A DNA stretch of 34,945 bases, taken from assembly GCA_964600565.1 (NCBI GenBank), contig CAZRJS010000007.1, positions 1 to 34,945 on the forward strand, read 5' to 3'. This DNA is from Candidatus Woesearchaeota archaeon. Its GTDB lineage: Archaea > Nanobdellota > Nanobdellia > Pacearchaeales > GW2011-AR1. Under the pieces are notes generated by a model. The model ran no database searches, was not told where the DNA came from, and saw nothing but the letters and a program-made list of their open reading frames with translations. This document shows, piece after piece, positions 5,955 to 34,907 of the stretch (position 1 is its first letter; each line of letters starts with the position of its first letter). The translations under genes and the position numbers were made by a program.

Positions 5955-5989
5955 ATTAATAAAGAATTTCTTATTAATAAAAATTTCAA
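5955..5989 (+). repeat. 35-nt direct repeat, copy 1 (33/35 identical to 13767..13801)
   Basis: attaataaaGaatttcttattaataaaaattTcaa versus attaataaaAaatttcttattaataaaaattCcaa. Contains an imperfect palindrome, ttaataa..ttattaa. Weaker similarity continues ~100 nt to the right in both copies. Confidence 0.7.
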
Positions 5990-6126
5990 TGGGGCAATGA
6001 GATAAGATTCTTTTTTAAACACATAAAGAAATCTAAAAAGAGGGGTTTTTAGAAAAGATTATTAAAATAAAGGGAATTCAATAAAACTTTATAACAAATC
6101 ATTCATCTCCTGAAAAAAACACAATC

Positions 6127-6157: not shown

Positions 6158-6229
6158 GCCTCGGTAGTATAATGGCCAGTACACAAGCCTGTCGCGCTTG
6201 AGACCCGGGTTCGATTCCCGGTCGAGGCG
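6158..6229 (+). tRNA. tRNA-Asp (anticodon GTC), 72 nt, no encoded CCA, no intron
   Basis: Hand-folded. Acceptor gcctcgg/tcgaggc (7 bp, terminal G-U). D-arm gtat-aatggcca-gtac. Anticodon arm caagc-ctGTCgc-gcttg. Variable loop agac. T-arm ccggg-ttcgatt-cccgg. Discriminator g, followed by tttt. Confidence 0.9.
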
Positions 6230-6494: not shown

Positions 6495-7349
6495 TTATTT
6501 ATTACTAAGATTTCTATTTGTTTTAAAAATTTTTTTCTTAGCTTTTTTATTTGATAAACATTCATATAATCGCATGAAATCTGGGTTTACAAGCTCAGTT
6601 CCTCTTCTTCCAGATAATTCTTTTGGTAGATTGAATAAATCTAATATTCTTTCCTTTCCTAAATAACAAATTTCTCCTCCAATAGAAAGGTAATTTATTA
6701 CACTGTTGGTTAAAGAATCTCCTAATGGTCTCTTCCTTTGTTCCCAGATACTCCTAAAGATATAATCTTCAAATCTTGCTGTTGATTTTTTTCGGGGTTT
6801 TATAGAAATTAATGCTCCATTTACAGAAGGTTCAGGATTAAAACTATTTGAGGGAATTTTCATAAGGTATTCTGTATCAAAAAATGCATTTGTAAGGATA
6901 GCTAATCTGCTAATGGGGGTTGTATCTGGAAGAATTCTTTCTTGATATGATTCAATATTATTAGCCTGTTTTTCTCCAACAAGGAGTGTAGCTGATTTAA
7001 ATCGTTCAGAATAAAGTCTATTAAATAAAGGTTCTGTAATATTAAAAGGGATATTTGATACTATTTTATCAATACCTTTTGGCCATTTTGAAGATAAAGC
7101 ATTTCCCATTACAATCTCTATATTTGAAAATTTATTTTTAATTTCCTGAAGATCATCTTTTAAATGGGAATCTTTTTCTATTACAGTAACTTTTTTTGCA
7201 AATTCAGCTAAATATTTTGTTAAAAAACCTTTTCCAGGACCAATTTCTAATATATGATCTTTAGATTCAACTTCTGCAAAAAAAACCATGTCTTTAGCTA
7301 TATCAGGATTAATTAAAAAATGTTGATTTTTATATATCTTATCTGGCAT
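6495..7349 (-). CDS. rRNA adenine dimethyltransferase family protein (KsgA/Dim1/Erm-like), paralog 1
   Basis: 284 aa. NQHFLINPDI, SAM motif ILEIGPGKGFLT, VTVIEKD, and catalytic IVSNIPFNITEPL (N-[LI]-P-[YF]). Confidence 0.75.
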   Translation of the reverse strand: MPDKIYKNQHFLINPDIAKDMVFFAEVESKDHILEIGPGKGFLTKYLAEFAKKVTVIEKDSHLKDDLQEIKNKFSNIEIVMGNALSSKWPKGIDKIVSNIPFNITEPLFNRLYSERFKSATLLVGEKQANNIESYQERILPDTTPISRLAILTNAFFDTEYLMKIPSNSFNPEPSVNGALISIKPRKKSTARFEDYIFRSIWEQRKRPLGDSLTNSVINYLSIGGEICYLGKERILDLFNLPKELSGRRGTELVNPDFMRLYECLSNKKAKKKIFKTNRNLSNK

Positions 7350-7461: not shown

Positions 7462-7806
7462 ATGATAGTGGCAAAAGAGTTTGTATTTGATTCTGCACAT
7501 AAATTAAAATGGCATAAGGGGAAGTGTAAAAATCTTCATGGTCATACATACAAATTACAAATTTTAGTTGAAGGTAAATTAAACAAACAGGGGATAGTTA
7601 TAGATTTTGGAGATATGAAAAAAATAATTAAGAGAGAAGTTATTGAAAAATTAGATCATAGATATCTAAATGAAATTATAAAAAATCCTACTGCAGAAAA
7701 CATATCTATATGGATTTGGGAAGAATTAAAAGATAAGATTAAAGATCTTAAAGAGATAAGATTGTGGGAAACTCCAACTTCATTTGCAATATATAATGGA
7801 AAATAA
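7462..7806 (+). CDS. queD: 6-carboxy-5,6,7,8-tetrahydropterin synthase (PTPS family)
   Basis: 114 aa. FDSAHKL...KCKNLHGHTYKL is the Cys-x3-HGH catalytic/zinc signature of QueD. Confidence 0.9.
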   Translation: MIVAKEFVFDSAHKLKWHKGKCKNLHGHTYKLQILVEGKLNKQGIVIDFGDMKKIIKREVIEKLDHRYLNEIIKNPTAENISIWIWEELKDKIKDLKEIRLWETPTSFAIYNGK

Positions 7807-8443
7807 AACTCTAAAAATAAATGAAATTTTCACAAGCATACAAGGAGAAGGAATTCAATCAGGATTGCCCACAATTTTTATTAGATTAACTGGATGCAAT
7901 CTTCGATGTAATTGGTGTGATACTAAATATGCTTATAATAAAGGGAGAGATAAAAATCTTATAAATATTTTAAAAGAGATTAAAAAATTTAAAATTAAAA
8001 ATATTTGTATTACCGGAGGAGAACCTTTACTTCAAAAAAATTTATTGTTATTCATTAGATTATTAATTGAAGAAAAATACAAGATTTTAATAGAAACAAA
8101 TGGCTCTTTGGATGTGTCTTTGATTCCAAAAGAGGTTTTAATTTCTTTAGATATAAAATGTCCTTCTTCAAATGAGAGCAAAAAAAATTTGTTATCAAAT
8201 TTAAAATTTTTAAAAAAGAAAGATCAATGCAAATTTGTAATAAATGATTATAAAGATTATTTATATGCAAAAAGGATAATAAAAAAATATAATCTTATTA
8301 AAAAAATAAATATTTTTTTTACCCCTGTTGGGGGAAAAAACGCTAGAAATTTAGTTGAATGGATTTTAAAAGATAAACTTAATATAAGAATCGGATTACA
8401 AATCCATAAGATAATTTGGGGCGATAAAAAAAGGGGTGTATGA
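7784..8443 (+). CDS. queE: 7-carboxy-7-deazaguanine synthase (radical SAM)
   Basis: EIFTSIQGEGIQSGLPTIFIRLTGCNLRCNWCDTKY is the QueE-type CX3CX2C cluster with a SIQGEG motif. The start may be Met5 (7796). It overlaps the queD stop. Confidence 0.9.
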   Translation: MQYIMENKTLKINEIFTSIQGEGIQSGLPTIFIRLTGCNLRCNWCDTKYAYNKGRDKNLINILKEIKKFKIKNICITGGEPLLQKNLLLFIRLLIEEKYKILIETNGSLDVSLIPKEVLISLDIKCPSSNESKKNLLSNLKFLKKKDQCKFVINDYKDYLYAKRIIKKYNLIKKINIFFTPVGGKNARNLVEWILKDKLNIRIGLQIHKIIWGDKKRGV

Positions 8444-9216
8444 TGAAAGATATTCAAAATCAAAAAGAATTTAGGGGGATTAGACTAAATGAAGTTGGGA
8501 TTAAACATATAAAGTTGCCTGTAAGAATTTTAGATAAAGGTAAAAAAGTTCAACATACTATTGCAGAATTTCATCTTGTTGTTTCATTAGATAAAAATAA
8601 AAGAGGAACTCATATGAGTAGATTTGTTGAAATTTTAGATGAATATATTAAAAAAGATTTAAATTTAAAAGTATTAGGAGAAATTGTTTCTGAAATGAAA
8701 AAAAGATTAGAAGCAATTGATTCTAAAATTATTATGAAATTCCCCTATTTTAAACGAAAAATGTCTCCCATATCAAGGAAAGAATCGATTTTAAATTACG
8801 AATGTTGTTTCACTTGTACTGGAAAAAATTTTGAAGATAAGATTATTGAGGTAAATGTTCCAATAACTACTTTATGTCCTTGTAGTAAAGAAATAAGTAG
8901 ATTTGGAGCCCATAATCAGAGAGGTTTTGCTAGGGTGAGAATTATTTCTTCAAAAAATATTTGGATAGAAGATATAATTAATCTTGTAGAAAAAGAAGCA
9001 AGTTGTGAGATATTTCCTTTATTGAAGAGGGTTGATGAAAAATATGTGACAGAAAAAGCGTATATGAATCCAAAATTTGTTGAAGATGTTGTAAGAGATG
9101 TTGTAAAGAAGTTGAAAAAAAATAAATCGATAATAAGTTATGAAATTGGATTATTAAACAACGAAAGTATTCACCTCCATGATGCTTATGCTTCAGTTTC
9201 AGGAGAAGTAAAATGA
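8440..9216 (+). CDS. folE2: GTP cyclohydrolase IB (FolE2/MptA family)
   Basis: 258 aa. GTHMSRF, TLCPCSKEIS and GAHNQRG motifs are typical of FolE2/MptA. 4-nt ATGA overlap with queE. Confidence 0.85.
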   Translation: MMKDIQNQKEFRGIRLNEVGIKHIKLPVRILDKGKKVQHTIAEFHLVVSLDKNKRGTHMSRFVEILDEYIKKDLNLKVLGEIVSEMKKRLEAIDSKIIMKFPYFKRKMSPISRKESILNYECCFTCTGKNFEDKIIEVNVPITTLCPCSKEISRFGAHNQRGFARVRIISSKNIWIEDIINLVEKEASCEIFPLLKRVDEKYVTEKAYMNPKFVEDVVRDVVKKLKKNKSIISYEIGLLNNESIHLHDAYASVSGEVK

Positions 9217-10892
9217 AGTATGTTTTAGGTGTAAATGCAGGATTAGAAAGAACCCATGATTCTTCAGCATGTTTATTCAGAAAGGGTAAGTTAATTGCAT
9301 TTGCTGAGGAAGAAAGATTTATAAGAAAAAAACATGCTTATAATCTTCTGCCTCATAATGCAATCAGATTTTGTTTGAATGAAGGAAAAATTGATGTTAA
9401 TGAAATAGAAAAGATAGCAGTTTCATGGGATTTTCCTAAATTTTATAGTCAGATTGGTAAAAAATTTCCTTCAAAAAATAATTTTAAAAAAAAATTATTC
9501 CCAAAAAAATATTATAAAAAGGTTAGTGCAGAAATTGTTTATGTGAATCATCACTTAGCACATGCTTCAAGTGCTTTTAGGTGTTCTGGATTTAATAAAT
9601 CTGCTGTTTTGATAATAGATGGTCAGGGAGAAGATTTTTCTACTAGTATTTGGGTTGGAGAAGGAAAGAAAATAAAATTTGTAAAAGGTTTCGATATATT
9701 TCATTCAATAGGCTATTTATATGAAGCTGCTAGTAAATATCTTGGTTTTAGATTAGACCAATCTGGAAAAACAATGGGTCTTTCTGCATATGGAAAGAAA
9801 AAATATGATTTTGAAGATTTGATCAAATTTATTCCTGAAGGTTATATATTGAATATTAAAGAAAAACTTTATCAAGAAATTGACTTTCAAAAGATTGTAT
9901 CTGATTCTTTTATTAAATACTTTGAAAAAAAAATTGGCCCAAAAAATAAAAGAATTTATCTATGGGATGAAAGAGATAGTATTATAGATAATAAAGTTTA
10001 TCTTAATAGAGAAGATGAAAATTTTGCTGCTTCTATTCAAGAGATAATTAATAGATTATTTATTCATCTTTCAAAAATTGCATTAAAATTAACAGGCACG
10101 TCAAAATTGTGTATTGCTGGAGGAGTTGGTTTGAATTGTGTAGGAAATGGCAAAATATTAGAAGAAAATATTTGTGATGAACTTTATGTACAACCTATAG
10201 CAAATGATGCTGGGACAAGTATTGGGGCAGCAATGGAGATTTTATCTAATGAAGGAGAAGATATTAATTTTAAAATGGATGACGTATACTATGGTCCAAA
10301 TTTCTCAAATAAAGAAATAGAAAAAATAATTGAAAAGAATAAATTAAATTATGAATACCTTAATAATCCTTCAAAGACTGTGGCCAAAATGATTTATGAG
10401 GGAAAAATTATAGGTTGGTTTCAGGGAAAAATGGAAGGTGGTCCTCGAGCATTAGGTAATCGGAGTATTCTAGCTGATCCAACTAACCCTAAAATAAAGG
10501 ATTTTGTTAATGAAGTAAAATTTAGAGAAAAATGGAGGCCACTTTGTCCAAGCATAATTGAAGAAGTAAAAGAAAAGTATCTTGAATTTCCTTATGATTC
10601 CCCGTTTATGACAATTAATTTTAAGATAAAAAAAGATAAGATAGAAAAAATTCCTTCAGCAGTTCATATTGATGGTACCGCAAGGGTACAGACAGTTAGT
10701 AAAAAAACCAATGCCCTCTATTGGGATTTAATAAGTGAGTTTGGAAAATTATCTGGAGAACAAGTTATCCTAAATACTTCAATGAATTCTAAAGGAGAAC
10801 CAATTGTATGTAGTCCTAATGATGCTATAAAGAATTTTTATACTTCTCAAATGGATGCATTGGTAATGGGTAATTATCTTATTGAAAAATGA
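9213..10892 (+). CDS. NodU/CmcH/TobZ-family carbamoyltransferase
   Basis: 559 aa. N-terminal LGVNAGLERTHDSSACLF and VNHHLAHASSAF (ASKHA/Kae1-like metal site), plus a C-terminal GPRALGNRSILADP motif. 4-nt overlap with folE2. Confidence 0.85.
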   Translation: MKYVLGVNAGLERTHDSSACLFRKGKLIAFAEEERFIRKKHAYNLLPHNAIRFCLNEGKIDVNEIEKIAVSWDFPKFYSQIGKKFPSKNNFKKKLFPKKYYKKVSAEIVYVNHHLAHASSAFRCSGFNKSAVLIIDGQGEDFSTSIWVGEGKKIKFVKGFDIFHSIGYLYEAASKYLGFRLDQSGKTMGLSAYGKKKYDFEDLIKFIPEGYILNIKEKLYQEIDFQKIVSDSFIKYFEKKIGPKNKRIYLWDERDSIIDNKVYLNREDENFAASIQEIINRLFIHLSKIALKLTGTSKLCIAGGVGLNCVGNGKILEENICDELYVQPIANDAGTSIGAAMEILSNEGEDINFKMDDVYYGPNFSNKEIEKIIEKNKLNYEYLNNPSKTVAKMIYEGKIIGWFQGKMEGGPRALGNRSILADPTNPKIKDFVNEVKFREKWRPLCPSIIEEVKEKYLEFPYDSPFMTINFKIKKDKIEKIPSAVHIDGTARVQTVSKKTNALYWDLISEFGKLSGEQVILNTSMNSKGEPIVCSPNDAIKNFYTSQMDALVMGNYLIEK

Positions 10893-11674
10893 AATTAACA
10901 ATATTAATTCCAGTATCAGATGATATAAGAATAAAAAGATGTATTGAAAGCATTGACGAAGATGTAGAAATTATTATTATTTTTAATTTTCCTTCAAAAG
11001 AAGTAAAAACAATAATAAAAAATTTATCAGAAAAATATAATCTTTTAACTACAGAAATAAATGAAAGAAATCTTGCAAAAGCATATAATCTTGGAACAGT
11101 TATGGCATTAAATAATAATATTCTGCTTATGGATTCTGACTGTATTTTTGAAAAAAATACAATTAAGAAATTACAAAAAGGTATGGATAAAAATTTTTTA
11201 TCAAAAGGGAGAGTTATTTATCAAACTTCTGGATTTATTAGTAGAATAATTGCGGGACTAAGAAATTACATTACTGTTGATAGAATTTCTGCGTTTAGTC
11301 CTCCTTTAATATTCAGCAAAAAAATTAAAAAGAAAATAAAAGGATATTATTTTTATGAAAAGTTATGCTGGATAGAAGATGCTGAATTTAATGAACGTGT
11401 TCAAAATGCCAAAGTTAAAATTTCTTATGATTCTTCTGCAGTTATTTATCATGATAAACTTACATTAAAAGAAGATTTAAGGAGTTCATATAGATATGGT
11501 ACTGGAAGAGCAATTGCAGATAAAGAAAAATTATTTAAAAATGAAATAAGGAGGGGTAATTCTAAGGACTTCCTTAATATTTTTAAAAAGAAGGGTTTTC
11601 TAATAGCTAGTTATTCTTTAGTTTGGAATATATTCTTTAGATTTGGATATAAAAAAGAAATGAAAAATAATTAA
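10889..11674 (+). CDS. Family 2 glycosyltransferase (GT-A fold)
   Basis: 261 aa. LTILIPVSDD start, NLAKAYNLGTVMALNNNILLMDSDC (DxD-type). 4-nt overlap with the carbamoyltransferase gene. Its stop shares TTAA with the stop of the convergent queC. Confidence 0.7.
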   Translation: MKLTILIPVSDDIRIKRCIESIDEDVEIIIIFNFPSKEVKTIIKNLSEKYNLLTTEINERNLAKAYNLGTVMALNNNILLMDSDCIFEKNTIKKLQKGMDKNFLSKGRVIYQTSGFISRIIAGLRNYITVDRISAFSPPLIFSKKIKKKIKGYYFYEKLCWIEDAEFNERVQNAKVKISYDSSAVIYHDKLTLKEDLRSSYRYGTGRAIADKEKLFKNEIRRGNSKDFLNIFKKKGFLIASYSLVWNIFFRFGYKKEMKNN

Positions 11675-12315
11675 TTTAAATATTCTGTTCTGTCAATCTT
11701 TCCCGCTTTTTTAAATGCCGCTTTACGTTCTTTACAACTTCTGCATTTACCACATTGTTTTTTAAAATTTTTATAGCAACTCCAAGAATGATATAAAGGG
11801 AATTCCGAATTAATTTTAATCATTTGGTATTTATTTTTATTTACAAATGGTTGTTTTAATTTTATTTTGTCATAAGAACTGTATTTTAATACTTTGTTAA
11901 AAAGATTTCCAAATTTAAAATTATTATCTGGAAAAGAGTCTTCTTTAGTACTACCTAACCAGACTTCACTAATCTTATAATTTACTCCAAATGAAGAAGC
12001 TAAGCTTAGAAATAGAAGATTTCTTAATGGAACCCATTCTTTTTTCTTATTTTTTGATTTTCCTTGCATAAAAGAATTAGTGAATCCTAGATTAATTTTT
12101 CTATTTATTAAAGTTATTCTTATATCCTTAGATTTTTTCTTATTTTCTTTGATGAATTTTTTAAGTGCTTCTAATTCTTTTTTAAAATTTTTTTGACCAT
12201 AATTAAAAAAAATAAGAACGGGTTCTCTCTTTTTTAATATAGCTTTAGATATTAAACATACTGAATCTAATCCCCCTGAAGTTAAAATTAATACTTTCTC
12301 AGGCTTTCTTTTCAT
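11671..12315 (-). CDS. queC: 7-cyano-7-deazaguanine synthase-like PP-loop ATPase (QueC paralog 1)
   Basis: 214 aa. PP-loop LILTSGGLDS, NYGQKN, VPLRNLLFLSLA, and the C-terminal four-Cys zinc cluster SCYKNFKKQCGKCRSCKERK. Confidence 0.8.
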   Translation of the reverse strand: MKRKPEKVLILTSGGLDSVCLISKAILKKREPVLIFFNYGQKNFKKELEALKKFIKENKKKSKDIRITLINRKINLGFTNSFMQGKSKNKKKEWVPLRNLLFLSLASSFGVNYKISEVWLGSTKEDSFPDNNFKFGNLFNKVLKYSSYDKIKLKQPFVNKNKYQMIKINSEFPLYHSWSCYKNFKKQCGKCRSCKERKAAFKKAGKIDRTEYLN

Positions 12316-13045
12316 ATTTTGTGTCTTTTAGGTTTAATCTTTTGAATATTAGCCTTCTTCTAACGCAATGTTGGCATTCTCCACATTGGGGAGAGGTTCC
12401 TTTAAGGCAGTTATAAGTTAGATGTAAGGGAACTTTCAATTTAACTCCTAGTTTAATAACGTCTTCTTTTGTCATTTTTTTATCTTGGAATGGGAACTCT
12501 ACTGAAATCCCATTAATATTGCTAAATTTTGAAATTTCTTTTGCTCCATTACACCAAAAAGAGGTTTCATCTGGAAAAGAAAGATTTTCTTTTAATATTG
12601 GGTCTTTTATAGAATAATGAATTATTGAGAAAGCAACTTTATTGTATCCTTCAGCTTCTGCTCCTGCCATTAATTCAGCTAAAAAATATAGATTTCTTGC
12701 AGGAGTCCATAAAAATTCTGCTAGTTTTCTTTCTCTTTCTAAATCATTAAGATCTTCCGGAGTTGTTTTTGGAAATTTACTTTGTTTTCCAACAATCGTT
12801 CCACTTCGATATACTTTTCCGAATTTTTTCAGTCTTTTCAAGTCTATAATTTCATATGAAAAATTTTTATAATTTTTCTGGATAAATGAAGCAATTCTTT
12901 TAATAGCTTTTAATTCCTGAAACTTAATCTTTTGCCCATAATCAAAGTAAATACCTTTTACAGTATATCCTTTTTTCAAATAATCAACAGCTAGAACTGT
13001 GCTATCAATACCGCCTGTAAAAGTCATTCTTACTTTTTTATCCAT
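12299..13045 (-). CDS. QueC-like PP-loop ATPase, divergent paralog 2
   Basis: 248 aa. MTFTGGIDS, FDYGQK, TPARNLYFL, and C-terminal YNCLKGTSPQCGECQHCVRRR. It carries an extra ~20-aa acidic/basic insert (TTPEDLNDLERERKLAEF) relative to paralog 1. Overlaps both neighbours. Confidence 0.7.
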   Translation of the reverse strand: MDKKVRMTFTGGIDSTVLAVDYLKKGYTVKGIYFDYGQKIKFQELKAIKRIASFIQKNYKNFSYEIIDLKRLKKFGKVYRSGTIVGKQSKFPKTTPEDLNDLERERKLAEFLWTPARNLYFLAELMAGAEAEGYNKVAFSIIHYSIKDPILKENLSFPDETSFWCNGAKEISKFSNINGISVEFPFQDKKMTKEDVIKLGVKLKVPLHLTYNCLKGTSPQCGECQHCVRRRLIFKRLNLKDTKYEKKA

Positions 13046-13766: not shown

Positions 13767-13801
13767 ATTAATAAAAAATTTCTTATTAATAAAAATTCCA
13801 A
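13767..13801 (+). repeat. 35-nt direct repeat, copy 2
   Basis: See 5955..5989. It lies 111 nt upstream of the PIG-L start; copy 1 lies 103 nt upstream of the 5852 start. Confidence 0.7.
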
Positions 13802-13901
13802 GAGGAAAATTAAATCATATTCATTTTTTAAGTTTGTGAGTATAAAAAGAGAAATATAAAAAGCAAGTTTAATAAAAGATTAGATTTATTTGCCAAAAAT
13901 C

Positions 13902-14708
13902 TTATTTTTTAATAATTAATTTAATCTTATCATAAATTATTAAAATCATCTTTCCAGAAATATTGCTGACTTTTTTTTCAAGAGTTTTATCATTGAGATG
14001 AAATTCTTTTAATAAGGTTTTTGCCTCATTTTTTGTATAACCTTCATTAACAAAAAAAGAGATAATTGCATTTTTTATTTTTCCTTTTCTTTTGAGAATA
14101 AATTTTATAGATTCATTATATTTATCTCCTGTTTTCATTGTTAATTTTAATAACCAGGAATTTACTCTTGGGGGTGGTGAAAAAGAAGATTTTTTCACTT
14201 TTTCTATAATTTTTATATCATAAAAGAGATTAGCAATTATGCCAGATTTAGTTGAATTATCAATTAACAGATTTTTAAAATTTTCTCCAATAATAAAAAC
14301 AATAAAAGGAATATCTGTTATAACTGCCTTAGCAATGATTTTTTCTCCAAGATAATAAGGGATATTTGAAACAATTTTATCATATCCTTCCCAAGAGTAT
14401 TTTGTAGCATCACCATAAATAATCTCTAAATTTTTATATTTATTTTTGATTAATTCCAACTTTTTTTTATATTGTATATCAATCTCAAAACTAAGAACTT
14501 TTTTTGCTTTTTTTGCTAGTTCATTTGTAAGCATACCCTCTCCAGCCCCAATTTCAATAATCTTATCTTTTTTAGACAGGGATGAATTTTCTATTTCCTT
14601 CTTTAAAACCAGTTTATCAACTAAAAAATGTTGCCCTTTTTCTAAATTATTTTTTGAATTTGTTTTGTTCCAAAGAAATATCTTTTTCATATTAATTAAT
14701 ACCCTCAA
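13902..14708 (-). CDS. rRNA adenine dimethyltransferase family protein (KsgA/Erm-like), divergent paralog 2
   Basis: 268 aa. GQHFLVD, IIEIGAGEGMLT, SFEIDIQY, YGDATKY, IVSNIPYYLGEKI. Only distantly similar to paralog 1, judged by eye. Confidence 0.75.
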   Translation of the reverse strand: MRVLINMKKIFLWNKTNSKNNLEKGQHFLVDKLVLKKEIENSSLSKKDKIIEIGAGEGMLTNELAKKAKKVLSFEIDIQYKKKLELIKNKYKNLEIIYGDATKYSWEGYDKIVSNIPYYLGEKIIAKAVITDIPFIVFIIGENFKNLLIDNSTKSGIIANLFYDIKIIEKVKKSSFSPPPRVNSWLLKLTMKTGDKYNESIKFILKRKGKIKNAIISFFVNEGYTKNEAKTLLKEFHLNDKTLEKKVSNISGKMILIIYDKIKLIIKK

Positions 14709-14728
14709 TAGTTTTTAATTTTATCATT

Positions 14729-14793
14729 ATCAGAAACTCGGGGTAATTGTCTGCTGTCTTTAGACAGCAGTTTATCCTTATTTTCTGTATTAA
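14729..14793 (-). repeat. Conserved hairpin element, copy A (candidate ncRNA or operator)
   Basis: The reverse complement matches 33359..33409 at 48/51 nt, and 33459..33470 at 12/12 nt. Contains the perfect palindrome ctgctgtc-ttta-gacagcag (14751-14770). Confidence 0.6.
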
Positions 14794-14881
14794 TTTGCAA
14801 TATTTTAATGTGTGATAAGTTTTAAGCTTGATTAGAATAATATTTATCCTTCTTTCATAGTTAAAGGTTTTGAACAAAAGG

Positions 14882-14911: not shown

Positions 14912-15619
14912 ATGAAAAAGAGTGAAATTTTGATAAAGCTAAAAGATGTTGAGAAACATTATCGCATAGGAGAAAAGAATATTGTCAAAGCTGTTGATGG
15001 TATAAGTATATCAATAAAAAAAGGGGATTTTGTCGCTGTAATGGGTCCAAGTGGTTCTGGAAAAAGCACATGCATGAATCTTATTGGAAGTTTAGATGTT
15101 CCAACAAAAGGGACTATACATCTTGGAGGAGAAAATATCTCTTATCTTAGCGAGTCTGATTTAGCAGAATTGAGAGGAATGCAAATTGGTTTTATTTTCC
15201 AGCAGTTTAACCTTATACCTAATTTAACTGTTAAAGAAAATGTAATGTTGCCAATGGATTTTCAAAGAATTTCTGGTAGAGAAAAAGAAGAAATTGCAGA
15301 AGAAATTTTAGAGAAAATAGGATTGGAAGAAAGAATGGATTTTTATCCTAATCAACTTTCTGGAGGTCAACAACAAAGAGTTGCAATTGCAAGAGCTCTG
15401 GCAAATAATCCAGAGGTTATTTTAGCAGATGAACCAACAGGAAATCTTGATACAAAAACAGGGCAAAAAGTTATGGATTTTTTAGAAGAATTAAACAAAG
15501 AAGGAAAAACAATAATTATGGTTACTCATGACCCTAATTTAGCAAATGAACATGCAGATATTGTTTATTGGCTTATAGATGGAAAAGTGCAAAAAATAAC
15601 TGGAAAAAAGAGTAAGTAG
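14912..15619 (+). CDS. MacB/LolD-type ABC transporter ATP-binding protein
   Basis: Walker A GPSGSGKST, signature LSGGQQQRVAIARAL, Walker B ILADEPTGNLD. The ORF opens at 14870, but MKKSEILIKLKDV at 14912 fits family N-termini and the TATA spacing. Confidence 0.85.
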   Translation: MKKSEILIKLKDVEKHYRIGEKNIVKAVDGISISIKKGDFVAVMGPSGSGKSTCMNLIGSLDVPTKGTIHLGGENISYLSESDLAELRGMQIGFIFQQFNLIPNLTVKENVMLPMDFQRISGREKEEIAEEILEKIGLEERMDFYPNQLSGGQQQRVAIARALANNPEVILADEPTGNLDTKTGQKVMDFLEELNKEGKTIIMVTHDPNLANEHADIVYWLIDGKVQKITGKKSK

Positions 15620-19425: not shown

Positions 19426-20637
19426 ATGGTAAATTATTTTTCATTTGCATTTAAAAACTTGAAAAAAAGAGGAATTAGGAGTTGGCTAACTCTTCTAGGA
19501 ATTTTTATTGGGATTGTTGCAGTTATTTCTTTAATCACACTTGGAAATGGACTAAAAGAGGCTGTTAATTCTCAGTTTGGTGTTGAATCAACACAAATTA
19601 TAAATATTCAAGCAGGGGGTTTAAATTATGGTGCTCCAGGTTCAACAGTTGTAAATCCTTTAACAAAAGAGGATACAAAAGCTATTCAGAGATTAAGCAC
19701 TATAGAATATGCAGTCCCGAGAAATATTAGATTTGGGTCAATGGAATACAATGATAAAATTGAATTTGGATATGCAGTTAGTATTATTGAGGGTTATGAA
19801 AAAGAAAGTTATGAAATGATGGATTTAAAAGCTGAAAAAGGCAGATTGCTAAGTTCAGGAGATTTAGGAAAAGTTATTTTGGGAAATACTCTCTCAAATG
19901 GAAATAAAAATGGTTTTGATAAGGATATTGATGTTGGAAAAAAGATTCTTATAGAGGGTGAGAAATTTACAGTTGTAGGGATTATGGAAAAAAAAGGCAG
20001 TTTTATGATAGATGGAATTGTTTTAATGTATGACCAAGATTTAGAAGATTTAATCGGTTATGGCGATGATGTTGATATAATTGGAGCCAAAGTCAAAGAC
20101 AGTAATTTAATGGATAGGGCAAAAGAAGATATTGAAAAATTATTAAGAAATAGAAGAGGTGTTAAAAAAGGTGAAGAAGATTTTAAAGTATCAACTCCAG
20201 ATTCTTTGTTAAGTCAGGTTAATAGTGTGTTAAATGCTATCCAGATATTTATTGTGCTTATTGCATCTATAGCAATTTTTGTTGGAGCTATTGGAATTGT
20301 TAATACAATGGCAACTTCTGTTGTTGAGAGAAAAAAAGAAATTGGAATTATGAAAGCTATTGGAGCAAAAAACAAACATATATTTATGCAATTTTTTGTT
20401 GAGTCTGGATTGATGGGACTTATTGGAGGTGCTCTTGGAATTATTTTTGGTTTATTAATTGGATTTCTTGGAACATTAGCAATTAATAATTTTGTTGGGG
20501 CAGAAACAACTCCAGATATAAATATCCCTTTAATCTTCTTTGCCTTGCTTGGAAGTTTTATAGTTGGCTCTGTTGCAGGAATTATTCCGGCAATGAAAGC
20601 AGCAAAACAAAATCCCGTGGAGGCATTAAGAGGATGA
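19426..20637 (+). CDS. MacB-like ABC transporter permease (FtsX domain with large extracytoplasmic loop)
   Basis: 403 aa. N-terminal FAFKNLKKRGIRSWLTLLGIFIGI, a ~230-aa periplasmic-type domain, then a C-terminal three-TM FtsX module ending NPVEALR. Confidence 0.85.
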   Translation: MVNYFSFAFKNLKKRGIRSWLTLLGIFIGIVAVISLITLGNGLKEAVNSQFGVESTQIINIQAGGLNYGAPGSTVVNPLTKEDTKAIQRLSTIEYAVPRNIRFGSMEYNDKIEFGYAVSIIEGYEKESYEMMDLKAEKGRLLSSGDLGKVILGNTLSNGNKNGFDKDIDVGKKILIEGEKFTVVGIMEKKGSFMIDGIVLMYDQDLEDLIGYGDDVDIIGAKVKDSNLMDRAKEDIEKLLRNRRGVKKGEEDFKVSTPDSLLSQVNSVLNAIQIFIVLIASIAIFVGAIGIVNTMATSVVERKKEIGIMKAIGAKNKHIFMQFFVESGLMGLIGGALGIIFGLLIGFLGTLAINNFVGAETTPDINIPLIFFALLGSFIVGSVAGIIPAMKAAKQNPVEALRG

Positions 20638-21839
20638 TAACTCCACAAACAATAAAATATTCTCTAAGGAATATGAAACACAAAAAAACAAGAAATTTTT
20701 TCACGATTTTATCAATTTTTATTGGGATAACAACAATTTTTATTTTTATTAGTTTTGGACTTGGCCTTTATACTTATATAGGGGATCTTACTGAGGGTTC
20801 TTCAGCAGATAAGGTGATAATCCAACCTAAAGGAGGAACTTTAGCCATGTTTGAAAATCATGTGGAGTTTACTAATGATGACTTAAAAGCTATTGAAAGA
20901 GTTCCCGGGGTTTATGAAGTTTCTGGATCGTATTTTAAAACAGTTGAGATTAAGATGCAGGATAAAATACTTTATACTTTATTAATGTCTTACGACCCTG
21001 AAAAGCCAATTGTGCTGGAATCTTCAAATGTTAAATTAGAAAAAGGAAGGGAGTTGAGCGATAATAAAAGAGAAATTGTTTTAGGATATAATTATATGAT
21101 TGATGATAGAATATTTCCAAAAGCCATAAGATTAAATCAAAATATAGAAATGAATGGAGAAGACATAAAAGTCGTTGGATTTTTTAATGAAGTTGGAAGT
21201 AAACAAGATGATGCTCAAGTATATGTTTCAAATGATTATATGGATAAACTTTTTCCTGATGAAAATCTTTCTTATGGTTGGATTGTAGCTAAAGTTGATA
21301 TAAAGAATATTGATGGTGTTGTAGAAAAAATAGAAAAATCATTAAGAAGAGAAAGAAATCTTGATGAAGGTAAAGAAGATTTTCATGTACAATCTTTTAA
21401 TGATTTGATTGAAGGATTTTCCAGTGCACTTAATATTGTGATAGGATTTATTATTTTGATTGCATTAATTTCAGTTTTGGTTTCTGCAGTAAATACAGCG
21501 AATACAATGATTACTTCTGTTCTTGAAAGAATTAAAGAGATAGGGGTGATAAAAAGTATTGGTGCAAGAAATTCAGATATACTTGGAATATTTTTATTTG
21601 AATCCGGTTTCATAGGGTTTGTTGCAGGAGTTGTGGGTGTTTTAATTGGTTGGGCATTAAGTGCATTAGGAGGAGCAATATTAACTAATATGGGATATGG
21701 ATTTTTGCAACCAGATTTTCCCATAATTCTTTTTGTTAGTCTTATAATCTTTGCAACACTTACAGGGGCAGTCTCAGGAGTTTACCCTGCAATTAAAGCA
21801 TCTAAGATAAATCCTGTTGAAGCACTTAGATATGAATGA
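20634..21839 (+). CDS. MacB-like ABC transporter permease, second paralog
   Basis: 401 aa with the same architecture, ending NPVEALRYE. 4-nt overlap with the first permease. Confidence 0.85.
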   Translation: MITPQTIKYSLRNMKHKKTRNFFTILSIFIGITTIFIFISFGLGLYTYIGDLTEGSSADKVIIQPKGGTLAMFENHVEFTNDDLKAIERVPGVYEVSGSYFKTVEIKMQDKILYTLLMSYDPEKPIVLESSNVKLEKGRELSDNKREIVLGYNYMIDDRIFPKAIRLNQNIEMNGEDIKVVGFFNEVGSKQDDAQVYVSNDYMDKLFPDENLSYGWIVAKVDIKNIDGVVEKIEKSLRRERNLDEGKEDFHVQSFNDLIEGFSSALNIVIGFIILIALISVLVSAVNTANTMITSVLERIKEIGVIKSIGARNSDILGIFLFESGFIGFVAGVVGVLIGWALSALGGAILTNMGYGFLQPDFPIILFVSLIIFATLTGAVSGVYPAIKASKINPVEALRYE

Positions 21840-32951: not shown

Positions 32952-33296
32952 TTACAATTCTTCAATAGCTCTTTCAATTCCCTTGTACCAGGTATAAACC
33001 ATTTTTTTTATTCTTTTTTTAATCTGATTTTTGTTGTTAATTTCATATAAAAAAGTATATCCTCCTTTAGAAATATTTCTTTGAGTTCTTCTTATTAAAT
33101 TTTTAATAACAAGAATTTTTATTGCTTTTTGAATTGTTGTTCTATCAAGTTCCATATTTTTAGAAATTTGAAATACTGTATATTTTTTATTTTTCCCAAA
33201 TAAAAAAAGTAATAAATTATATTCAGTTTTATTTAAATCAAATGTGCATTTAATCAAATCTTTTTTAGATATTTTTTTACATGAAAAAGTTATCAT
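32952..33296 (-). CDS. Small winged-helix transcriptional regulator (TrmB/MarR-like)
   Basis: 114 aa. LNKTEYNLLLFLFGKNKKYTVFQISKNMELDRTTIQKAIKILVIKNLIRR. Two N-terminal Cys (C6, C17). Confidence 0.5.
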   Translation of the reverse strand: MITFSCKKISKKDLIKCTFDLNKTEYNLLLFLFGKNKKYTVFQISKNMELDRTTIQKAIKILVIKNLIRRTQRNISKGGYTFLYEINNKNQIKKRIKKMVYTWYKGIERAIEEL

Positions 33297-33358
33297 TTTA
33301 GCACAAATTTTATTTTAATTATAAATTACTTCTTGCTTTTTTAGTAATTAATATTCTC

Positions 33359-33470
33359 TTAATACAGAAAACAAGGATAAACTGTTGTCTAAAGACAACA
33401 GACAATTACTACATAATTGCCCCTTATTTTCTGATTCAGAAACTCTAAATAAATACCACGAGTTTCTGAT
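33359..33470 (+). repeat. Conserved hairpin element, copy B (expanded by a 47-nt insertion)
   Basis: 51-nt core at 33359-33409 with palindrome ctgttgtc-taaa-gacaacag (33382-33401), and a 12-nt 3' block at 33459-33470. Extra helices: 33365-33376/33422-33433 (11 of 12 bp) and 33436-33445/33460-33469 (10 bp). Confidence 0.6.
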
Positions 33471-33512
33471 GGCAATAATATAAGAGGCTTCATAAGTTTT
33501 CCCTATTAACAT

Positions 33513-34499
33513 TTATTCTTGTTTTTTAATTTGTTCGTAAGCAGAAGTAGATGCAATTGCCCCTTCTGCACATGCTGTTATAGCTTGTTTTAAAGGGTTA
33601 TTTGTAATATCTCCTGCTGCGAAAATTCCGGATATTGAAGTTTCCTGAATTTTATTTACTACAATGTAATTATTTTCAAGATTTAAATTAAGTTGTTTAG
33701 CAATTTTTGTGTCAGGAATTGAACCTATTTCAACAAAAATTCCATCTAAAGAAAGTTCTTTTCCAGAATCTAATAAAATTCCTTCTACTTTTTCTGAGCC
33801 TTTTATTTCTTTTATTTCTGAATTAAAAATCAATTCAATTTTTTTATCTTTTTCAACTTGTTTAACCCATGTAGGTTCTGCTCTGAAAAATTTTTCTTGT
33901 CTGTAAATAATATAAACCTTTTTTGCATATCTAGATAACAAAAGAGCTGCAGTTAAGGCAGCATTACTTCCCCCAATTACTGAAACAATTTTTTCTTTGA
34001 AGAAAGTTGCATCACAAGTTGCACAATAACTAATACCTCTTCCTAAAAGTTTATTTTCATTTTCCAAATTTAATTTTACTTTTTCTCTTCCAATAGCTAT
34101 AATAATTTTTTTAGCACTATAAATAGAATTATCTGTTTTAATCTCAAATTCTTCATTTTTTTTAATTTTTCTTTTGGATAACTCTCTTGGTTTTTCATGT
34201 TCAAAAGAAAAGTTAGAGAAATTCAATTTTGAGGAATTTATCTTTATTTCTTCAACTTTATCTGAATTAATTTTTATCCCTAGATTTTTTACTTGTTCAA
34301 TTAGTTTTTTTGTTAATTCCATTCCAGTAATTGAATTATGAGAAGGAAAATTGCATATTTCAGCAGCTTCAGATATTGCACCTCCGTTTAATTCTCCAAT
34401 AATTAATGTATTTAATAAATATCTTCCAGCATAAATAGCTGCAGTTAAACCTGCAGGACCTGCTCCAATAATAATTAAATCATATTTTTTTTCTTCCAT
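33513..34499 (-). CDS. trxB: Thioredoxin reductase
   Basis: 328 aa. LIIIGAGPAGLTAAIYA, redox-active CATCD, GGSNAALTAALLL, AAGDITN. Confidence 0.85.
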   Translation of the reverse strand: MEEKKYDLIIIGAGPAGLTAAIYAGRYLLNTLIIGELNGGAISEAAEICNFPSHNSITGMELTKKLIEQVKNLGIKINSDKVEEIKINSSKLNFSNFSFEHEKPRELSKRKIKKNEEFEIKTDNSIYSAKKIIIAIGREKVKLNLENENKLLGRGISYCATCDATFFKEKIVSVIGGSNAALTAALLLSRYAKKVYIIYRQEKFFRAEPTWVKQVEKDKKIELIFNSEIKEIKGSEKVEGILLDSGKELSLDGIFVEIGSIPDTKIAKQLNLNLENNYIVVNKIQETSISGIFAAGDITNNPLKQAITACAEGAIASTSAYEQIKKQE

Positions 34500-34544: not shown

Positions 34545-34907
34545 TTATCTCCGCCCTATTCCTCTTCCTTGACCAGTTCCCCTACCTCTTCCTCCACCCA
34601 TACCTCTTCCCTGACCATTTCCCATCCCTCTTCCCTGACCATTTCCCATTCCCCTTCCATTTCCCATTCCTTTTCCCTGACCATTTTCCATACCTTTTTC
34701 TTGATTTTCTATAATATTTTCTCTTCCTGAATCTTTTTCATTTAAAATAATCGCGTTTCTAGGACAGGCATCTGCAGCTTTTTGTAAACATTCTGCATTT
34801 TCATTTTTTATTTCTGCAATATTGTTTTTCATTTCTATTCCATCTGGACAAATGCCTTCGCAAATTCCACAACCAATGCAGTTTGCTTTGTCTATTTTAG
34901 CTTCCAT
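34545..34907 (-). CDS. 4Fe-4S ferredoxin-domain protein with C-terminal Gly/Arg-rich repeat tail
   Basis: 120 aa. CIGCGICEGICP plus distal ACP (single-cluster type), then GMENGQGKGMGNGRGMGNGQGRGMGNGQGRGMGGGRGRGTGQGRGIGRR. Confidence 0.7.
   Translation of the reverse strand: MEAKIDKANCIGCGICEGICPDGIEMKNNIAEIKNENAECLQKAADACPRNAIILNEKDSGRENIIENQEKGMENGQGKGMGNGRGMGNGQGRGMGNGQGRGMGGGRGRGTGQGRGIGRR
34561..34692 (-). repeat. In-frame ~24-nt tandem repeats encoding GMGNGQGR units
   Basis: The plus strand shows repeated cctcttccctgaccatttcccat-type units inside the ferredoxin-tail coding region. Confidence 0.7.

What the first reader, a model, noticed from the sequence alone, without database searches (positions are those of the whole stretch)
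14729..14793. ~65-nt conserved element with a covarying perfect hairpin, present twice in inverted orientation 18.6 kb apart (copy A)
Seen: the reverse complement of 14743-14793 matches 33359-33409 at 48/51 positions. Copy A reads ttaatacagaaaaTaaggataaactgCtgtctaaagacaGcagacaattac; copy B has C, T and A at the capitalised positions. Two of the three differences are a compensatory pair inside a perfect 8-bp hairpin: ctgCtgtc-taaa-gacaGcag versus ctgTtgtc-taaa-gacaAcag. A second block, cgagtttctgat, is identical (14729-14740 reverse-complemented; 33459-33470). In copy A the ends cagaaa and tttctg can close the element into a ~60-nt stem-loop. Copy A lies in the divergent spacer between KsgA paralog 2 and the ABC ATPase gene, and the 61-aa ORF 14692..14877 over it is not credible. 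Inference: a base-pair-preserving substitution argues for selection on a helix, that is a small structured RNA. The alternative is a symmetric operator for a dimeric regulator whose half-sites changed in concert. It matches no RNA family I recognise.
Basis: seen in the sequence. Interest (0 to 1): 0.65.

Follow-up and report, generated by a model that had tools for sequence, protein, structure and literature searches.

The report
Mobile double-hairpin repeat of DPANN archaea
The two matching hairpin elements are real, but they are decayed copies of a many-copy, transposase-less mobile repeat found in tiny DPANN archaeal genomes, whose ends look like those of single-strand "peel-and-paste" (IS200/IS605-type) transposons; they are not a private small-RNA gene or a regulator's binding site.

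Summary
In detail: 14743-14793 and the reverse complement of 33359-33409 match at 48/51. The C-G versus T-A swap in the 8-bp hairpin and the shared 12-nt block are also there.

The element is not confined to these two loci. In the source metagenomes its depth is 6-8 times that of its flanks. An allele lacking exactly the 107 nt of copy B coexists in one run. The same hairpin occurs in 34 loci of DPANN archaeal MAGs (five Aenigmatarchaeota, one Pacearchaeota).

There it is the left hairpin of a roughly 120-nt unit made of two long stem-loops with sharp boundaries. 18 of 37 base pairs covary. Copies are intergenic in every gene orientation, and one orthologous site is filled in one species and empty in another. 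No transposase gene lies nearby.

The unit has no terminal inverted repeats and no target duplication. It has a conserved 5' flanking tetranucleotide (TTAT; TAAT in the window) and hairpin-adjacent "guide" tetranucleotides. These pair with the flank and with the 3' end (TSAT) as in IS608.

Best reading: a non-autonomous IS200/IS605-type (PATE-like) element. Window copies A and B are deletion derivatives. The operator and 5'-UTR readings are rejected. An RNA role is untested.

The parts
14729..14788 (-). Copy A: 60-nt deletion derivative of the family unit. The proposed top strand is the window - strand. It keeps the left-end domain and only the last 11 nt (GAGTTTCTGAT) of the right end.
   Evidence: The covariance model built from Aenigmatarchaeota copies hits 14689-14792 (+), 32.7 bits, E = 4.7e-4. 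Logan contigs break inside it and depth rises from 20-24 to 138-190.
14789..14792 (-). Conserved 5' flanking tetranucleotide of copy A (TAAT on the - strand, ATTA on +). This is the proposed target / left cleavage site, which is not part of the element.
   Evidence: The same TAAT precedes copy B and the Pacearchaeota copy L020. It pairs with the guide TAAA by the IS608 rule (PMC3201880).
14751..14770 (.). Perfect 8-bp hairpin with 4-nt loop of copy A (CTGCTGTC-TTTA-GACAGCAG on +). This is the proposed left-end subterminal hairpin (IPL). The guide tetranucleotide TAAA (- strand) is at + 14771-14774.
   Evidence: The identical 20-mer occurs in 34 DPANN loci.
33364..33470 (+). Copy B: 107-nt element, with the proposed top strand being the window + strand. 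Left-end domain: lower stem 33365-33376 / 33422-33433, small hairpin 33403-33419, IPL 33382-33401. This is followed by a 9-bp hairpin 33437-33445 / 33460-33468 that replaces the usual right-end hairpin, and the element ends in TGAT (33467-33470).
   Evidence: Model hit 33360-33470 (-), 27.4 bits. In run X2 a contig joins 33361 to 33469, skipping 107 nt with a 2-nt ambiguity. This is an allele without the element, at depth 5.4 versus about 17.
33360..33363 (+). TAAT, the conserved 5' flanking tetranucleotide of copy B. It is retained in the empty allele if the joint is placed at 33363|33471.
33382..33401 (.). Hairpin of copy B (CTGTTGTC-TAAA-GACAACAG on +). The guide TAAA is at 33378-33381.
33348..33512 (-). 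54-aa ORF that gene callers place over copy B. It is judged spurious.
   Evidence: It was called on 4 public contigs. In copy A the same frame is open only back to a stop at 14709-14711 and has no ATG/GTG/TTG start (read). The sequence is a repeat that is absent from an allele.

Best explanation
Copies A and B are two degenerate members of a family of short, gene-less mobile DNA elements of DPANN archaea. The intact unit is about 120 nt. Read on its proposed active (top) strand it is: TTAT | CC-lower stem-AAAA-[8-bp hairpin, loop TTTA or TAAA]-internal loop-lower stem | lower stem-SAAA-[second 8-9-bp hairpin]-15 nt-TSAT |.

It has no terminal inverted repeats, makes no target duplication, and carries a hairpin near each end. 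That is the anatomy of IS200/IS605 'peel-and-paste' single-strand transposons and of their transposase-less derivatives, the PATEs.

Inferred mechanism: a Y1 HUH transposase supplied in trans binds the two subterminal hairpins on single-stranded DNA. The four bases 5' of each hairpin foot act as guides that pair with the cleavage sites. AAAA (or TAAA) pairs with the flanking TTAT (or TAAT). SAAA pairs with the terminal T-S'-A-T. The strand is then excised as a circle and reinserted 3' of another TTAT/TAAT.

Shown: multi-copy status, sharp boundaries, a conserved 5' flank with a variable 3' flank, covarying stems, an empty allele and an empty/filled orthologous site, and no linked gene. Inferred: the single-strand mechanism, the choice of top strand, and the existence of the transposase.

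In the window, copy B has lost the right-end hairpin and copy A most of the right half. The compensatory C-G/T-A swap is ordinary stem maintenance within such a family. Their position next to the ABC ATPase and wHTH genes is incidental.
For: - **Multi-copy.** Depth is 138-190 over 14751-14777 versus 20-24 in the flanks, and 125-190 over 33406-33465. Several different flanks join at the element edges, and Logan contigs L006/L007 start at 14764.
- **Mobility.** Run X2 has an allele lacking exactly 107 nt of copy B. L044 (JACPDL01) carries a 121-nt unit where L017 (JAGVVX01) has none, with flanks 93-96% identical.
- **Family.** 34 of 42 exact matches to the 20-nt hairpin lie in six DPANN MAGs; the other 8 are scattered bacterial chance hits. 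A covariance model finds 9 further copies with other hairpin sequences in the same loci, up to 3 copies in 2.2 kb.
- **Boundaries.** Over 38 copies, information jumps from 0.05 to 1.7-2.0 bits at TTAT and falls from 1.7 to 0.19 bits after TSAT.
- **Structure.** 18 of 37 pairs have double-sided changes. z = -11 to -12.6 as RNA and about -10 as DNA, with both DNA strands equal.
- **IS608 format.** In IS608, G1 pairs with C2, G2 with C1, G4 with C4, and position 3 is an unpaired A in both guide and cleavage site. CL lies 19 nt 5' of the hairpin foot and outside the IS (PMC3201880). In this family, GL AAAA / CL TTAT lie 17-18 nt from the foot (16 in one divergent copy). Taking the right hairpin's foot as its 8-bp core, read by eye from the, 30 sequences (the script used extended stems), GR CAAA pairs with CR TGAT and GR GAAA with CR TCAT. 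The window and Pacearchaeota copies have GL TAAA with flank TAAT.
- **PATE definition** (no inverted terminal repeats, palindromes near the termini, no target duplication, too short for a transposase; PMC3119063) is met.
- **Context.** Copies are intergenic in convergent (9), tandem (10 sense, 7 antisense) and divergent (5) settings. No gene recurs beside them.
Against: - No Y1/HUH transposase gene was seen in the window or, by a crude motif, in about 320 kb of held DPANN loci. Whole genomes could not be scanned.
- The guide/cleavage covariation rests on few independent switches. The right-end C/G switch is confounded with the lower stem that also pairs that base.
- Several copies with deviant guides (L017, L027, L047) or a deviant flank (L030:1519), or both (L039:2120), do not covary. 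At least two other copies in the window's metagenome have TTAT flanks, while no variant at the TAAA guide positions was reported.
- The left and right hairpins differ in sequence, unlike IS608's near-identical pair.
- The loop occurs as TTTA or TAAA on the same strand.
- The right cleavage site is 19 nt from the hairpin, against 10 in IS608.
- The window copies lack the right hairpin, so the right-end rule cannot be checked on them.
- With RNA parameters the strand opposite to the proposed top strand always folds better (19/19). This is mainly due to one conserved wobble, which on the top strand is an A.C mismatch just 5' of TSAT.
Confidence: 0.6

Rival explanations
1. A REP/REPIN-like system: the hairpin units are propagated and kept at low-to-moderate copy number by a single domesticated RAYT-type Y1 transposase. 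They persist vertically rather than behaving as a classical insertion-sequence derivative.
For: Copies are intergenic, structured, high in density and gene-less, with subfamilies inside one genome. Units lie in the same rpoB-rpoA1 spacer in two genomes whose flanking genes are only 70-73% identical. Stems are maintained by compensation, as reported for REPINs (PMC3116915, listed).
Against: There is no GT[AG]G tetranucleotide at the hairpin foot, which defines canonical REPs (PMC6006769). The two hairpins are arranged head-to-tail and each has its own lower stem; they are not an inverted REP doublet. No RAYT was seen. REP/RAYT systems are described as bacterial. Immediate flanks in the rpoB-rpoA1 case are not alignable, so shared ancestry is unproven.
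Confidence: 0.15
2. A family of structured non-coding RNAs, transcribed in the orientation of the reader's copy A. Multiple genomic copies would act as sRNA genes or as cis-acting RNA modules that stabilise, process or terminate transcripts.
For: There is strong covariation and very low folding energies (z to -12.6). A G-U wobble is conserved in the first stem (13/15). Internal loops are conserved in sequence.
Against: Orientation relative to flanking genes is near random: 10 sense and 7 antisense in tandem contexts, with many convergent contexts. No promoter is conserved outside the sharp boundaries. Sporadic one-sided changes are G-U 12 versus A-C 6, which is not significant. As ssDNA the two strands are equal. 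Presence/absence alleles, truncated copies, tandem partial duplications and nested insertions are behaviour of mobile DNA. There is no Rfam match even at E <= 1. No RNA data exist.
Confidence: 0.15
3. A symmetric operator for a dimeric regulator, such as the adjacent 114-aa wHTH protein, controlling the wHTH gene and the ABC ATPase gene.
For: It is a perfect 20-bp palindrome lying upstream of both genes in the same orientation.
Against: The palindrome is embedded in covarying outer stems, which a duplex binding site would not need. Copies lie between convergent genes and inside the rpoB-rpoA1 operon spacer. No regulator or target family recurs nearby. An allele without copy B exists. In the wider family the hairpin sequence itself varies.
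Confidence: 0.02
4. A classical MITE mobilised by a DDE transposase through terminal inverted repeats, with a 2-bp (AT) target duplication.
For: A 2-nt AT ambiguity exists at the empty-site joint of copy B. The window copies begin with CAGAAA and end with TTTCTG.
Against: The intact family unit has no terminal inverted repeat across its two ends and no recurring flanking direct repeat. The AT is equally explained by the retained TAAT target plus the terminal TGAT. The conserved motif lies on one flank only.
Confidence: 0.05

Closest known systems
PATEs (palindrome-associated transposable elements), the transposase-less derivatives of IS200/IS605-family insertion sequences (Haloquadratum walsbyi, PMC3119063; PATE-like elements in Geobacillus stearothermophilus, PMC10055086)
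   Same: Too short to encode a transposase. No terminal inverted repeats, no target duplication, and a palindrome close to each terminus. Many copies per genome, and nested small mobile repeats inside the elements.
   Different: No parent IS or TnpA/TnpB has been identified. The units are shorter (about 120 nt) and consist almost entirely of two long stem-loops. The hosts are DPANN archaea. The left and right hairpins differ in sequence.
IS608 / ISDra2 (IS200/IS605 family) transposon ends
   Same: A conserved tetranucleotide 5' of the left end, lying outside the element and 17-18 nt (16 in one copy) from the hairpin foot (19 nt in IS608). The guide is the 4 nt 5' of each hairpin. The pairing format matches: guide N-A-A-N4 with cleavage site T-N'-A-N4'. 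Excision that keeps the target is compatible with the empty allele.
   Different: The right cleavage site is 19 nt from the hairpin rather than 10. Extra lower stems enclose each hairpin and sequester the cleavage site. Loop orientation is variable. No transposase is known.
REP / REPIN-RAYT systems of bacteria
   Same: Short intergenic hairpin repeats with compensatory stem evolution and in-genome subfamilies. They are presumably moved by a Y1 HUH enzyme acting on ssDNA.
   Different: No GT[AG]G foot motif (tested, not met). The architecture is a head-to-tail double hairpin rather than an inverted doublet. The hosts are archaeal. No RAYT was found.
Double-hairpin elements and other hairpin repeats of organelle genomes (titles found)
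   Same: Small mobile units made of two adjacent hairpins in AT-rich, compact genomes.
   Different: Unrelated hosts, sequences and (unknown) mechanisms. This is a resemblance only.

Membership tests
IS200/IS605-type non-autonomous element (PATE) | Too short to encode a transposase; no ORF of its own | tested here: met
   Units are 56-235 nt. The only ORFs over them are spurious.
IS200/IS605-type non-autonomous element (PATE) | No terminal inverted repeats | tested here: met
   The left end TTATCC... and the reverse complement of the right end ATSATAT... do not match beyond a weak TAT-C.
IS200/IS605-type non-autonomous element (PATE) | No target-site duplication; excision or absence restores the target precisely | tested here: inconclusive
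   No recurrent flanking direct repeat in 38 copies. The empty allele of copy B is exact to within a 2-nt AT ambiguity, which fits TAAT|GGCAA. The L017/L044 empty site lies in a diverged AT-rich spacer and is not base-exact.
IS200/IS605-type non-autonomous element (PATE) | Subterminal hairpin at each end | tested here: met
   8-9-bp hairpins lie 17-18 nt (16 in one copy) from the left boundary and 16-20 nt from the right boundary in intact units. The window copies keep only the left one.
IS200/IS605-type non-autonomous element (PATE) | Conserved tetra/pentanucleotide target flanking the left end only | tested here: met
   TTAT in 36/38 copies, with 0.05 bit just outside it. The 3' flank is uninformative. 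TAAT occurs in both window copies and in L020.
IS200/IS605-type non-autonomous element (PATE) | Guide tetranucleotide 5' of each hairpin foot complementary to the cleavage site (IS608 rule) | tested here: inconclusive
   The consensus fits at both ends, and two lineage switches covary: AAAA/TTAT to TAAA/TAAT, and CAAA/TGAT to GAAA/TCAT. However, the independent events are few, the right-end switch is confounded with a stem, the right-end fit depends on taking the hairpin foot as its 8-bp core, and several deviant copies do not covary.
IS200/IS605-type non-autonomous element (PATE) | A Y1 HUH transposase (TnpA) available in the same cell | not testable with these tools
   None in the window and none by motif in the held loci.
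IS200/IS605-type non-autonomous element (PATE) | Insertion orientation tied to the direction of replication (lagging-strand template) | not tested
   Contig coordinates of the loci are not available.
REP / REPIN | GT[AG]G (or CGTC) tetranucleotide at the foot of the palindrome | tested here: not met
   The bases 5' of the hairpins are AAAA/TAAA and SAAA on one strand, and TTCAT/ATATA on the other. Definition taken from PMC6006769 and PMC3733652.
REP / REPIN | Two REPs in inverted orientation forming one long hairpin; a cognate single-copy RAYT flanked by REPs | tested here: not met
   The two hairpin domains are head-to-tail and each is closed by its own stem. RAYT presence is not testable.
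Classical MITE | Terminal inverted repeats matching a parent IS, plus target duplication | tested here: not met
Structured non-coding RNA family | Conserved secondary structure supported by covariation | tested here: met
   18 of 37 pairs have compensatory changes. A DNA hairpin element predicts the same.
Structured non-coding RNA family | A discrete transcript of defined strand and ends | not testable with these tools
   No RNA run holds this organism. No Rfam family matches.
Operator of a wHTH regulator | Sites confined to promoter regions of a regulon and linked to the regulator gene | tested here: not met
   Copies lie between convergent genes, in an operon spacer, and in all orientations. 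No regulator recurs nearby.

The most novel reading that the evidence does not exclude
This could be an orphan single-strand replicator of DPANN archaea. It would be a PATE/REPIN-like double-hairpin element shared, with the same left hairpin, by two DPANN lineages (Aenigmatarchaeota and Pacearchaeota). It persists at dozens of copies in roughly 1-Mb genomes that may encode no cognate transposase. If so, it would be mobilised by an enzyme of the host archaeon or of a virus, or by a so far unrecognised HUH-type protein. Its conserved wobble and internal loops could additionally reflect an RNA-level role.
Probability: 0.12. Interest if true: 0.6.

Novelty: new member of a known kind. Interest (0 to 1): 0.35.

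Why it matters
For annotation, these elements break assemblies (Logan contigs end inside them). They also generate spurious small ORFs and can be mistaken for sRNA genes or operators in DPANN genomes.

For biology, DPANN genomes are tiny and densely coded. A gene-less hairpin element present at several copies per 8 kb in some regions, and even inside the rpoB-rpoA1 spacer, is therefore a notable load. It also provides a handle on single-strand transposition in archaea. The guide/target logic makes testable predictions about target choice, and the family provides markers for strain-level variation. It does not point to a new regulatory RNA.

Tried and rejected
- **Rfam.** At gathering thresholds on the window, and at E <= 1 on four family loci, there was only a tRNA (6158-6229) and a sub-threshold SRP RNA in L031. 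Nothing matched the element.
- **Small protein.** The 54-aa ORF called over copy B has no start codon in the matching frame of copy A, and the sequence is absent from an allele. Rejected.
- **Inversion between the two inverted copies.** I suspected this because contigs break at copy A. No strand-changing joints were seen, and the gene order on other contigs equals the window. Extra copies explain the breaks.
- **Paralogy of the two 114-aa proteins** (7462-7806 and 32952-33296). None: one is a PTPS/QueD, the other a wHTH.
- **Viral contigs.** No match to the hairpin.
- **Metagenome-contig scan** with a window-lineage pattern. It returned only one new locus, L050.
- **RNA-seq runs.** None available.
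- **Linked genes.** Clustering 269 ORFs from 35 loci gave no recurrent family. The largest cluster (4) is a set of MNT-type nucleotidyltransferases, mostly in one locus.
- **Crude HUH...Y motif scan** of the held loci. No hit; weak evidence.
- **Strand choice from G-U pairs.** The RNA-energy asymmetry is not backed by sporadic substitutions (12 versus 6) and disappears with DNA parameters.
- **Apparent invariance of the 20-nt hairpin.** This was an ascertainment effect of searching with it. Model-based hits carry other, covarying hairpins.
- **Orthologous retention in L025/L038.** Same spacer and orientation, but the flanks are not alignable, so it is left open.
- **Literature.** No description of this family was found.

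Full report
**1.

The longest inverted repeat in the window is 14743-14793 against 33359-33409, at 51 nt and 94%. A 29-nt pattern over the hairpin occurs only at these two places, with none expected by chance.

The three differences include the compensatory pair inside the perfect 8-bp hairpin: CTGCTGTC/GACAGCAG in A and CTGTTGTC/GACAACAG in B. The second block ATCAGAAACTCG is shared.

Both copies fold far better than shuffles: copy A -23.5 kcal/mol (z = -5.2) and copy B -41.7 kcal/mol (z = -6.7). Pfam confirms the neighbours:
- KsgA-type methyltransferase, 13902-14693 (-)
- ABC ATPase, 14912-15619 (+)
- thioredoxin-reductase-like gene, 33513-34499 (-)
- TrmB/MarR-like wHTH, 32952-33296 (-)

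**2. The element is not private to these two loci**

Public contigs carrying the ABC ATPase gene start inside the copy A hairpin, at window position 14764. I laid the contigs of four metagenome runs on copy A. Word depth was 138-190 over 14751-14777 against 20-24 in the flanks, and several different sequences join at 14743 and at 14790-14796.

Copy B shows the same: 125-190 against 15-20. In run X2 a contig joins 33361 to 33469 and skips 107 nt, at depth 5.4 against about 17. That is an allele without copy B. Loose ends show that other copies in the same population continue into a second hairpin (CCACTCAC-TTTA-GTGTGTGG) that copies A and B lack.

**3. The family**

A scan of one genome per species for CTGNTGTCTTTAGACANCAG gave 42 loci. 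Of these, 34 lie in six DPANN archaeal MAGs: five Aenigmatarchaeota (13, 13, 4, 2 and 1 loci) and one Pacearchaeota (1 locus). The remaining 8 are scattered bacterial hits, as expected by chance.

In these genomes the hairpin is the apex of one of two abutting long stem-loops in a unit of about 120 nt. The lower stems and the second hairpin differ between subfamilies, with full compensation. In an alignment of 15 distinct copies, 18 of 37 consensus pairs have double-sided changes.

A covariance model built from that alignment finds both window copies: A at 32.7 bits and B at 27.4 bits. It also finds nine further copies in the held loci whose first hairpin has other, covarying sequences. So the apparent invariance of the 20-mer came from searching with it.

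Variants include:
- units expanded by nested small palindromic insertions
- tandem partial duplications
- a truncated copy
- a 56-nt minimal form without the apical hairpins

No Rfam family matches.

**4. Context**

The copies are intergenic. They lie between convergent (9), tandem (17: 10 sense, 7 antisense) and divergent (5) gene pairs. One lies in the rpoB-rpoA1 spacer of two genomes. No gene family recurs next to them.

An orthologous spacer with 93-96% identical flanks is filled in JACPDL01 (L044) and empty in JAGVVX01 (L017). This excludes an operator, a promoter element or a 5'-UTR device tied to particular genes. Together with the empty allele of copy B, it shows presence/absence behaviour.

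**5. Anatomy of the ends**

Over 38 copies the boundaries are sharp. Information content jumps from 0.05 to 1.7-2.0 bits at a TTAT on one side. On the other side it drops from 1.7 to 0.19 bits after A-T-A-T-S-A-T. There is no terminal inverted repeat and no recurrent flanking direct repeat.

This is the published definition of PATEs, the gene-less relatives of IS200/IS605 elements: no inverted terminal repeats, palindromes close to the termini, no target duplication, and too short for a transposase (PMC3119063).

The facts for IS608 (PMC3201880) are:
- The left cleavage/target site TTAC lies 19 nt 5' of the left hairpin and is not part of the element.
- The right site TCAA lies 3' of the right hairpin.
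- Each site is read by the four bases 5' of the hairpin foot.
- Guide base 1 pairs with site base 2, guide 2 with site 1, and guide 4 with site 4. Position 3 is an unpaired A in both.

I read the present family on the strand that begins with TTAT. The results are:

| End | Guide (4 nt 5' of hairpin) | Cleavage site | Distance to hairpin foot |
|---|---|---|---|
| Left, Aenigmatarchaeota | AAAA | TTAT (5' flank) | 17-18 nt (16 in one copy) |
| Right, subfamily 2 | CAAA | TGAT (element end) | about 19 nt |
| Right, subfamily 1 | GAAA | TCAT (element end) | about 19 nt |
| Left, window A and B, Pacearchaeota L020 | TAAA | TAAT (5' flank) | 18 nt (window), 14 nt (L020) |

Every pair follows the IS608 format: guide N-A-A-N4 with site T-N'-A-N4'. 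The right-end guides were read by eye from the sequences, taking the hairpin foot as its 8-bp core; the script extended some stems and so reported shifted tetranucleotides.

If the ambiguous 2 nt are placed accordingly, the empty allele of copy B reads TAAT|GGCAA. This is what precise excision that keeps the target would leave.

**6. Cautions**

- The number of independent guide/site switches is small.
- The right-end C/G switch also sits in a stem.
- Several copies with deviant guides or flanks do not covary.
- Other copies in the window's metagenome have TTAT flanks.
- The two hairpins are not alike in sequence.
- The loop occurs as TTTA or TAAA.
- No Y1 HUH transposase was found in the window or by a crude motif in the held loci. 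Whole genomes could not be searched.

This comes mainly from one conserved wobble, and sporadic substitutions are not significantly biased (12 versus 6). With DNA parameters the strands are equal. No RNA data exist. An RNA-level role therefore remains possible, but it is not needed to explain the data.

**7. The window copies under this model**

*Copy B* (top strand = +):
- TAAT 33360-33363
- element 33364-33470
- guide TAAA 33378-33381
- hairpin 33382-33401
- lower stem 33365-33376 / 33422-33433
- a 9-bp hairpin 33437-33445 / 33460-33468 where the right-end hairpin has been lost
- terminal TGAT 33467-33470

*Copy A* (top strand = -):
- element 14729-14788
- TAAT at + 14789-14792
- hairpin 14751-14770

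Copy A looks like a further internal deletion of a B-like unit: ACAATTAC|...|GAGTTTCTGAT. Because both lack the right hairpin, they may no longer be mobile. The empty allele may be the ancestral state or an excision product.

**8. Verdict**

The sequence observation is confirmed. The claim that a helix is under selection is supported. The proposed nature is not: this is neither a unique small-RNA gene nor a wHTH operator.

It is a new member of a known kind, a PATE-like non-autonomous element of the IS200/IS605 type in DPANN archaea. The mechanism is inferred from end anatomy and the transposase is still missing. I found no description of this family in the searchable literature.

Noticed in passing
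window 5955-6019 and 13767-13831; also 7032-7262 vs 14343-14570: The two ksgA paralogs (6495-7349 and 13902-14693, both -) belong to a segmental duplication. It also includes a 65-nt non-coding block downstream of each gene (82% identical) containing a near-palindrome, ATTAATAAAGAATTTCTTATTAAT. In the first copy a tRNA gene (6158-6229) lies between the block and ksgA.
   Followed up: no
window 7462-9216 and 11671-13045: A 7-deazaguanine (queuosine/archaeosine precursor) gene set: PTPS/QueD 7462-7806, radical-SAM QueE-like 7784-8443, FolE2 8440-9216, and two adjacent QueC paralogs 11671-12315 and 12299-13045. A carbamoyltransferase (9213-10892) and a glycosyltransferase lie between them.
   Followed up: no
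window 34545-34907 (-), repeats 34555-34710: A 120-aa ferredoxin-like protein has a C-terminal tail encoded by degenerate 12/24-nt tandem repeats (Gly-rich low complexity).
   Followed up: no
window 14912-15619 vs 19426-21839: The ABC ATPase next to copy A stands alone. Two paralogous MacB/FtsX-type permease genes lie 4 kb away, beyond a RecQ helicase and an RsmH-like methyltransferase.
   Followed up: no
L010, L012, L038, L040 (inside the family units): A second kind of mini-element is nested in the internal loops of the units. It is about 50 nt with its own terminal inverted repeats (CAGCAAAG...CTTTGCTG, CAAGAAGGA...TCCTTCTTG), and each folds into two hairpins. It always sits 3' of the left hairpin or just 5' of the right guide. 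It is reminiscent of the 'small mobile repeats' that insert into PATEs in Haloquadratum.
   Followed up: partly
L026:7154-7206 and L036:7108-7257: Tandem partial duplications inside single units: the hairpin plus adjacent loop is duplicated in L026, and the right hairpin segment is duplicated in L036.
   Followed up: no
L008, L010, L041, window copies; window 33391-33392 variants: The 4-nt loop of the conserved hairpin occurs as TTTA or TAAA on the same strand, even among copies in one population. This suggests loop inversion by intrastrand template switching at a hairpin that really forms in vivo.
   Followed up: no
L025:1794-1913 and L038:4560-4785: In two Aenigmatarchaeota genomes a unit lies in the spacer between the RNA polymerase genes rpoB and rpoA1, in the same orientation. 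The flanking genes are only 70-73% identical. Each unit resembles the other copies of its own genome, and the immediate flanks are not alignable.
   Followed up: partly
L050:4023-4131 and window copy B: In two unrelated contigs the element lies beside thioredoxin-system genes: upstream of a thioredoxin gene in L050, and downstream of the thioredoxin-reductase-like gene in the window. This is probably coincidence.
   Followed up: no
L031:4722-5079: An archaeal SRP RNA match scores below Rfam's gathering score (75.8 versus 96.5 bits, E = 1.9e-15). It is presumably a divergent DPANN SRP RNA.
   Followed up: no
L026:1088-7118 and L037:2245-3965: Several paralogous wHTH-nucleotidyltransferase (MNT-like) genes, each followed by a small unknown gene, are clustered in loci that also hold units of the repeat. 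They may be toxin-antitoxin-type cassettes.
   Followed up: no
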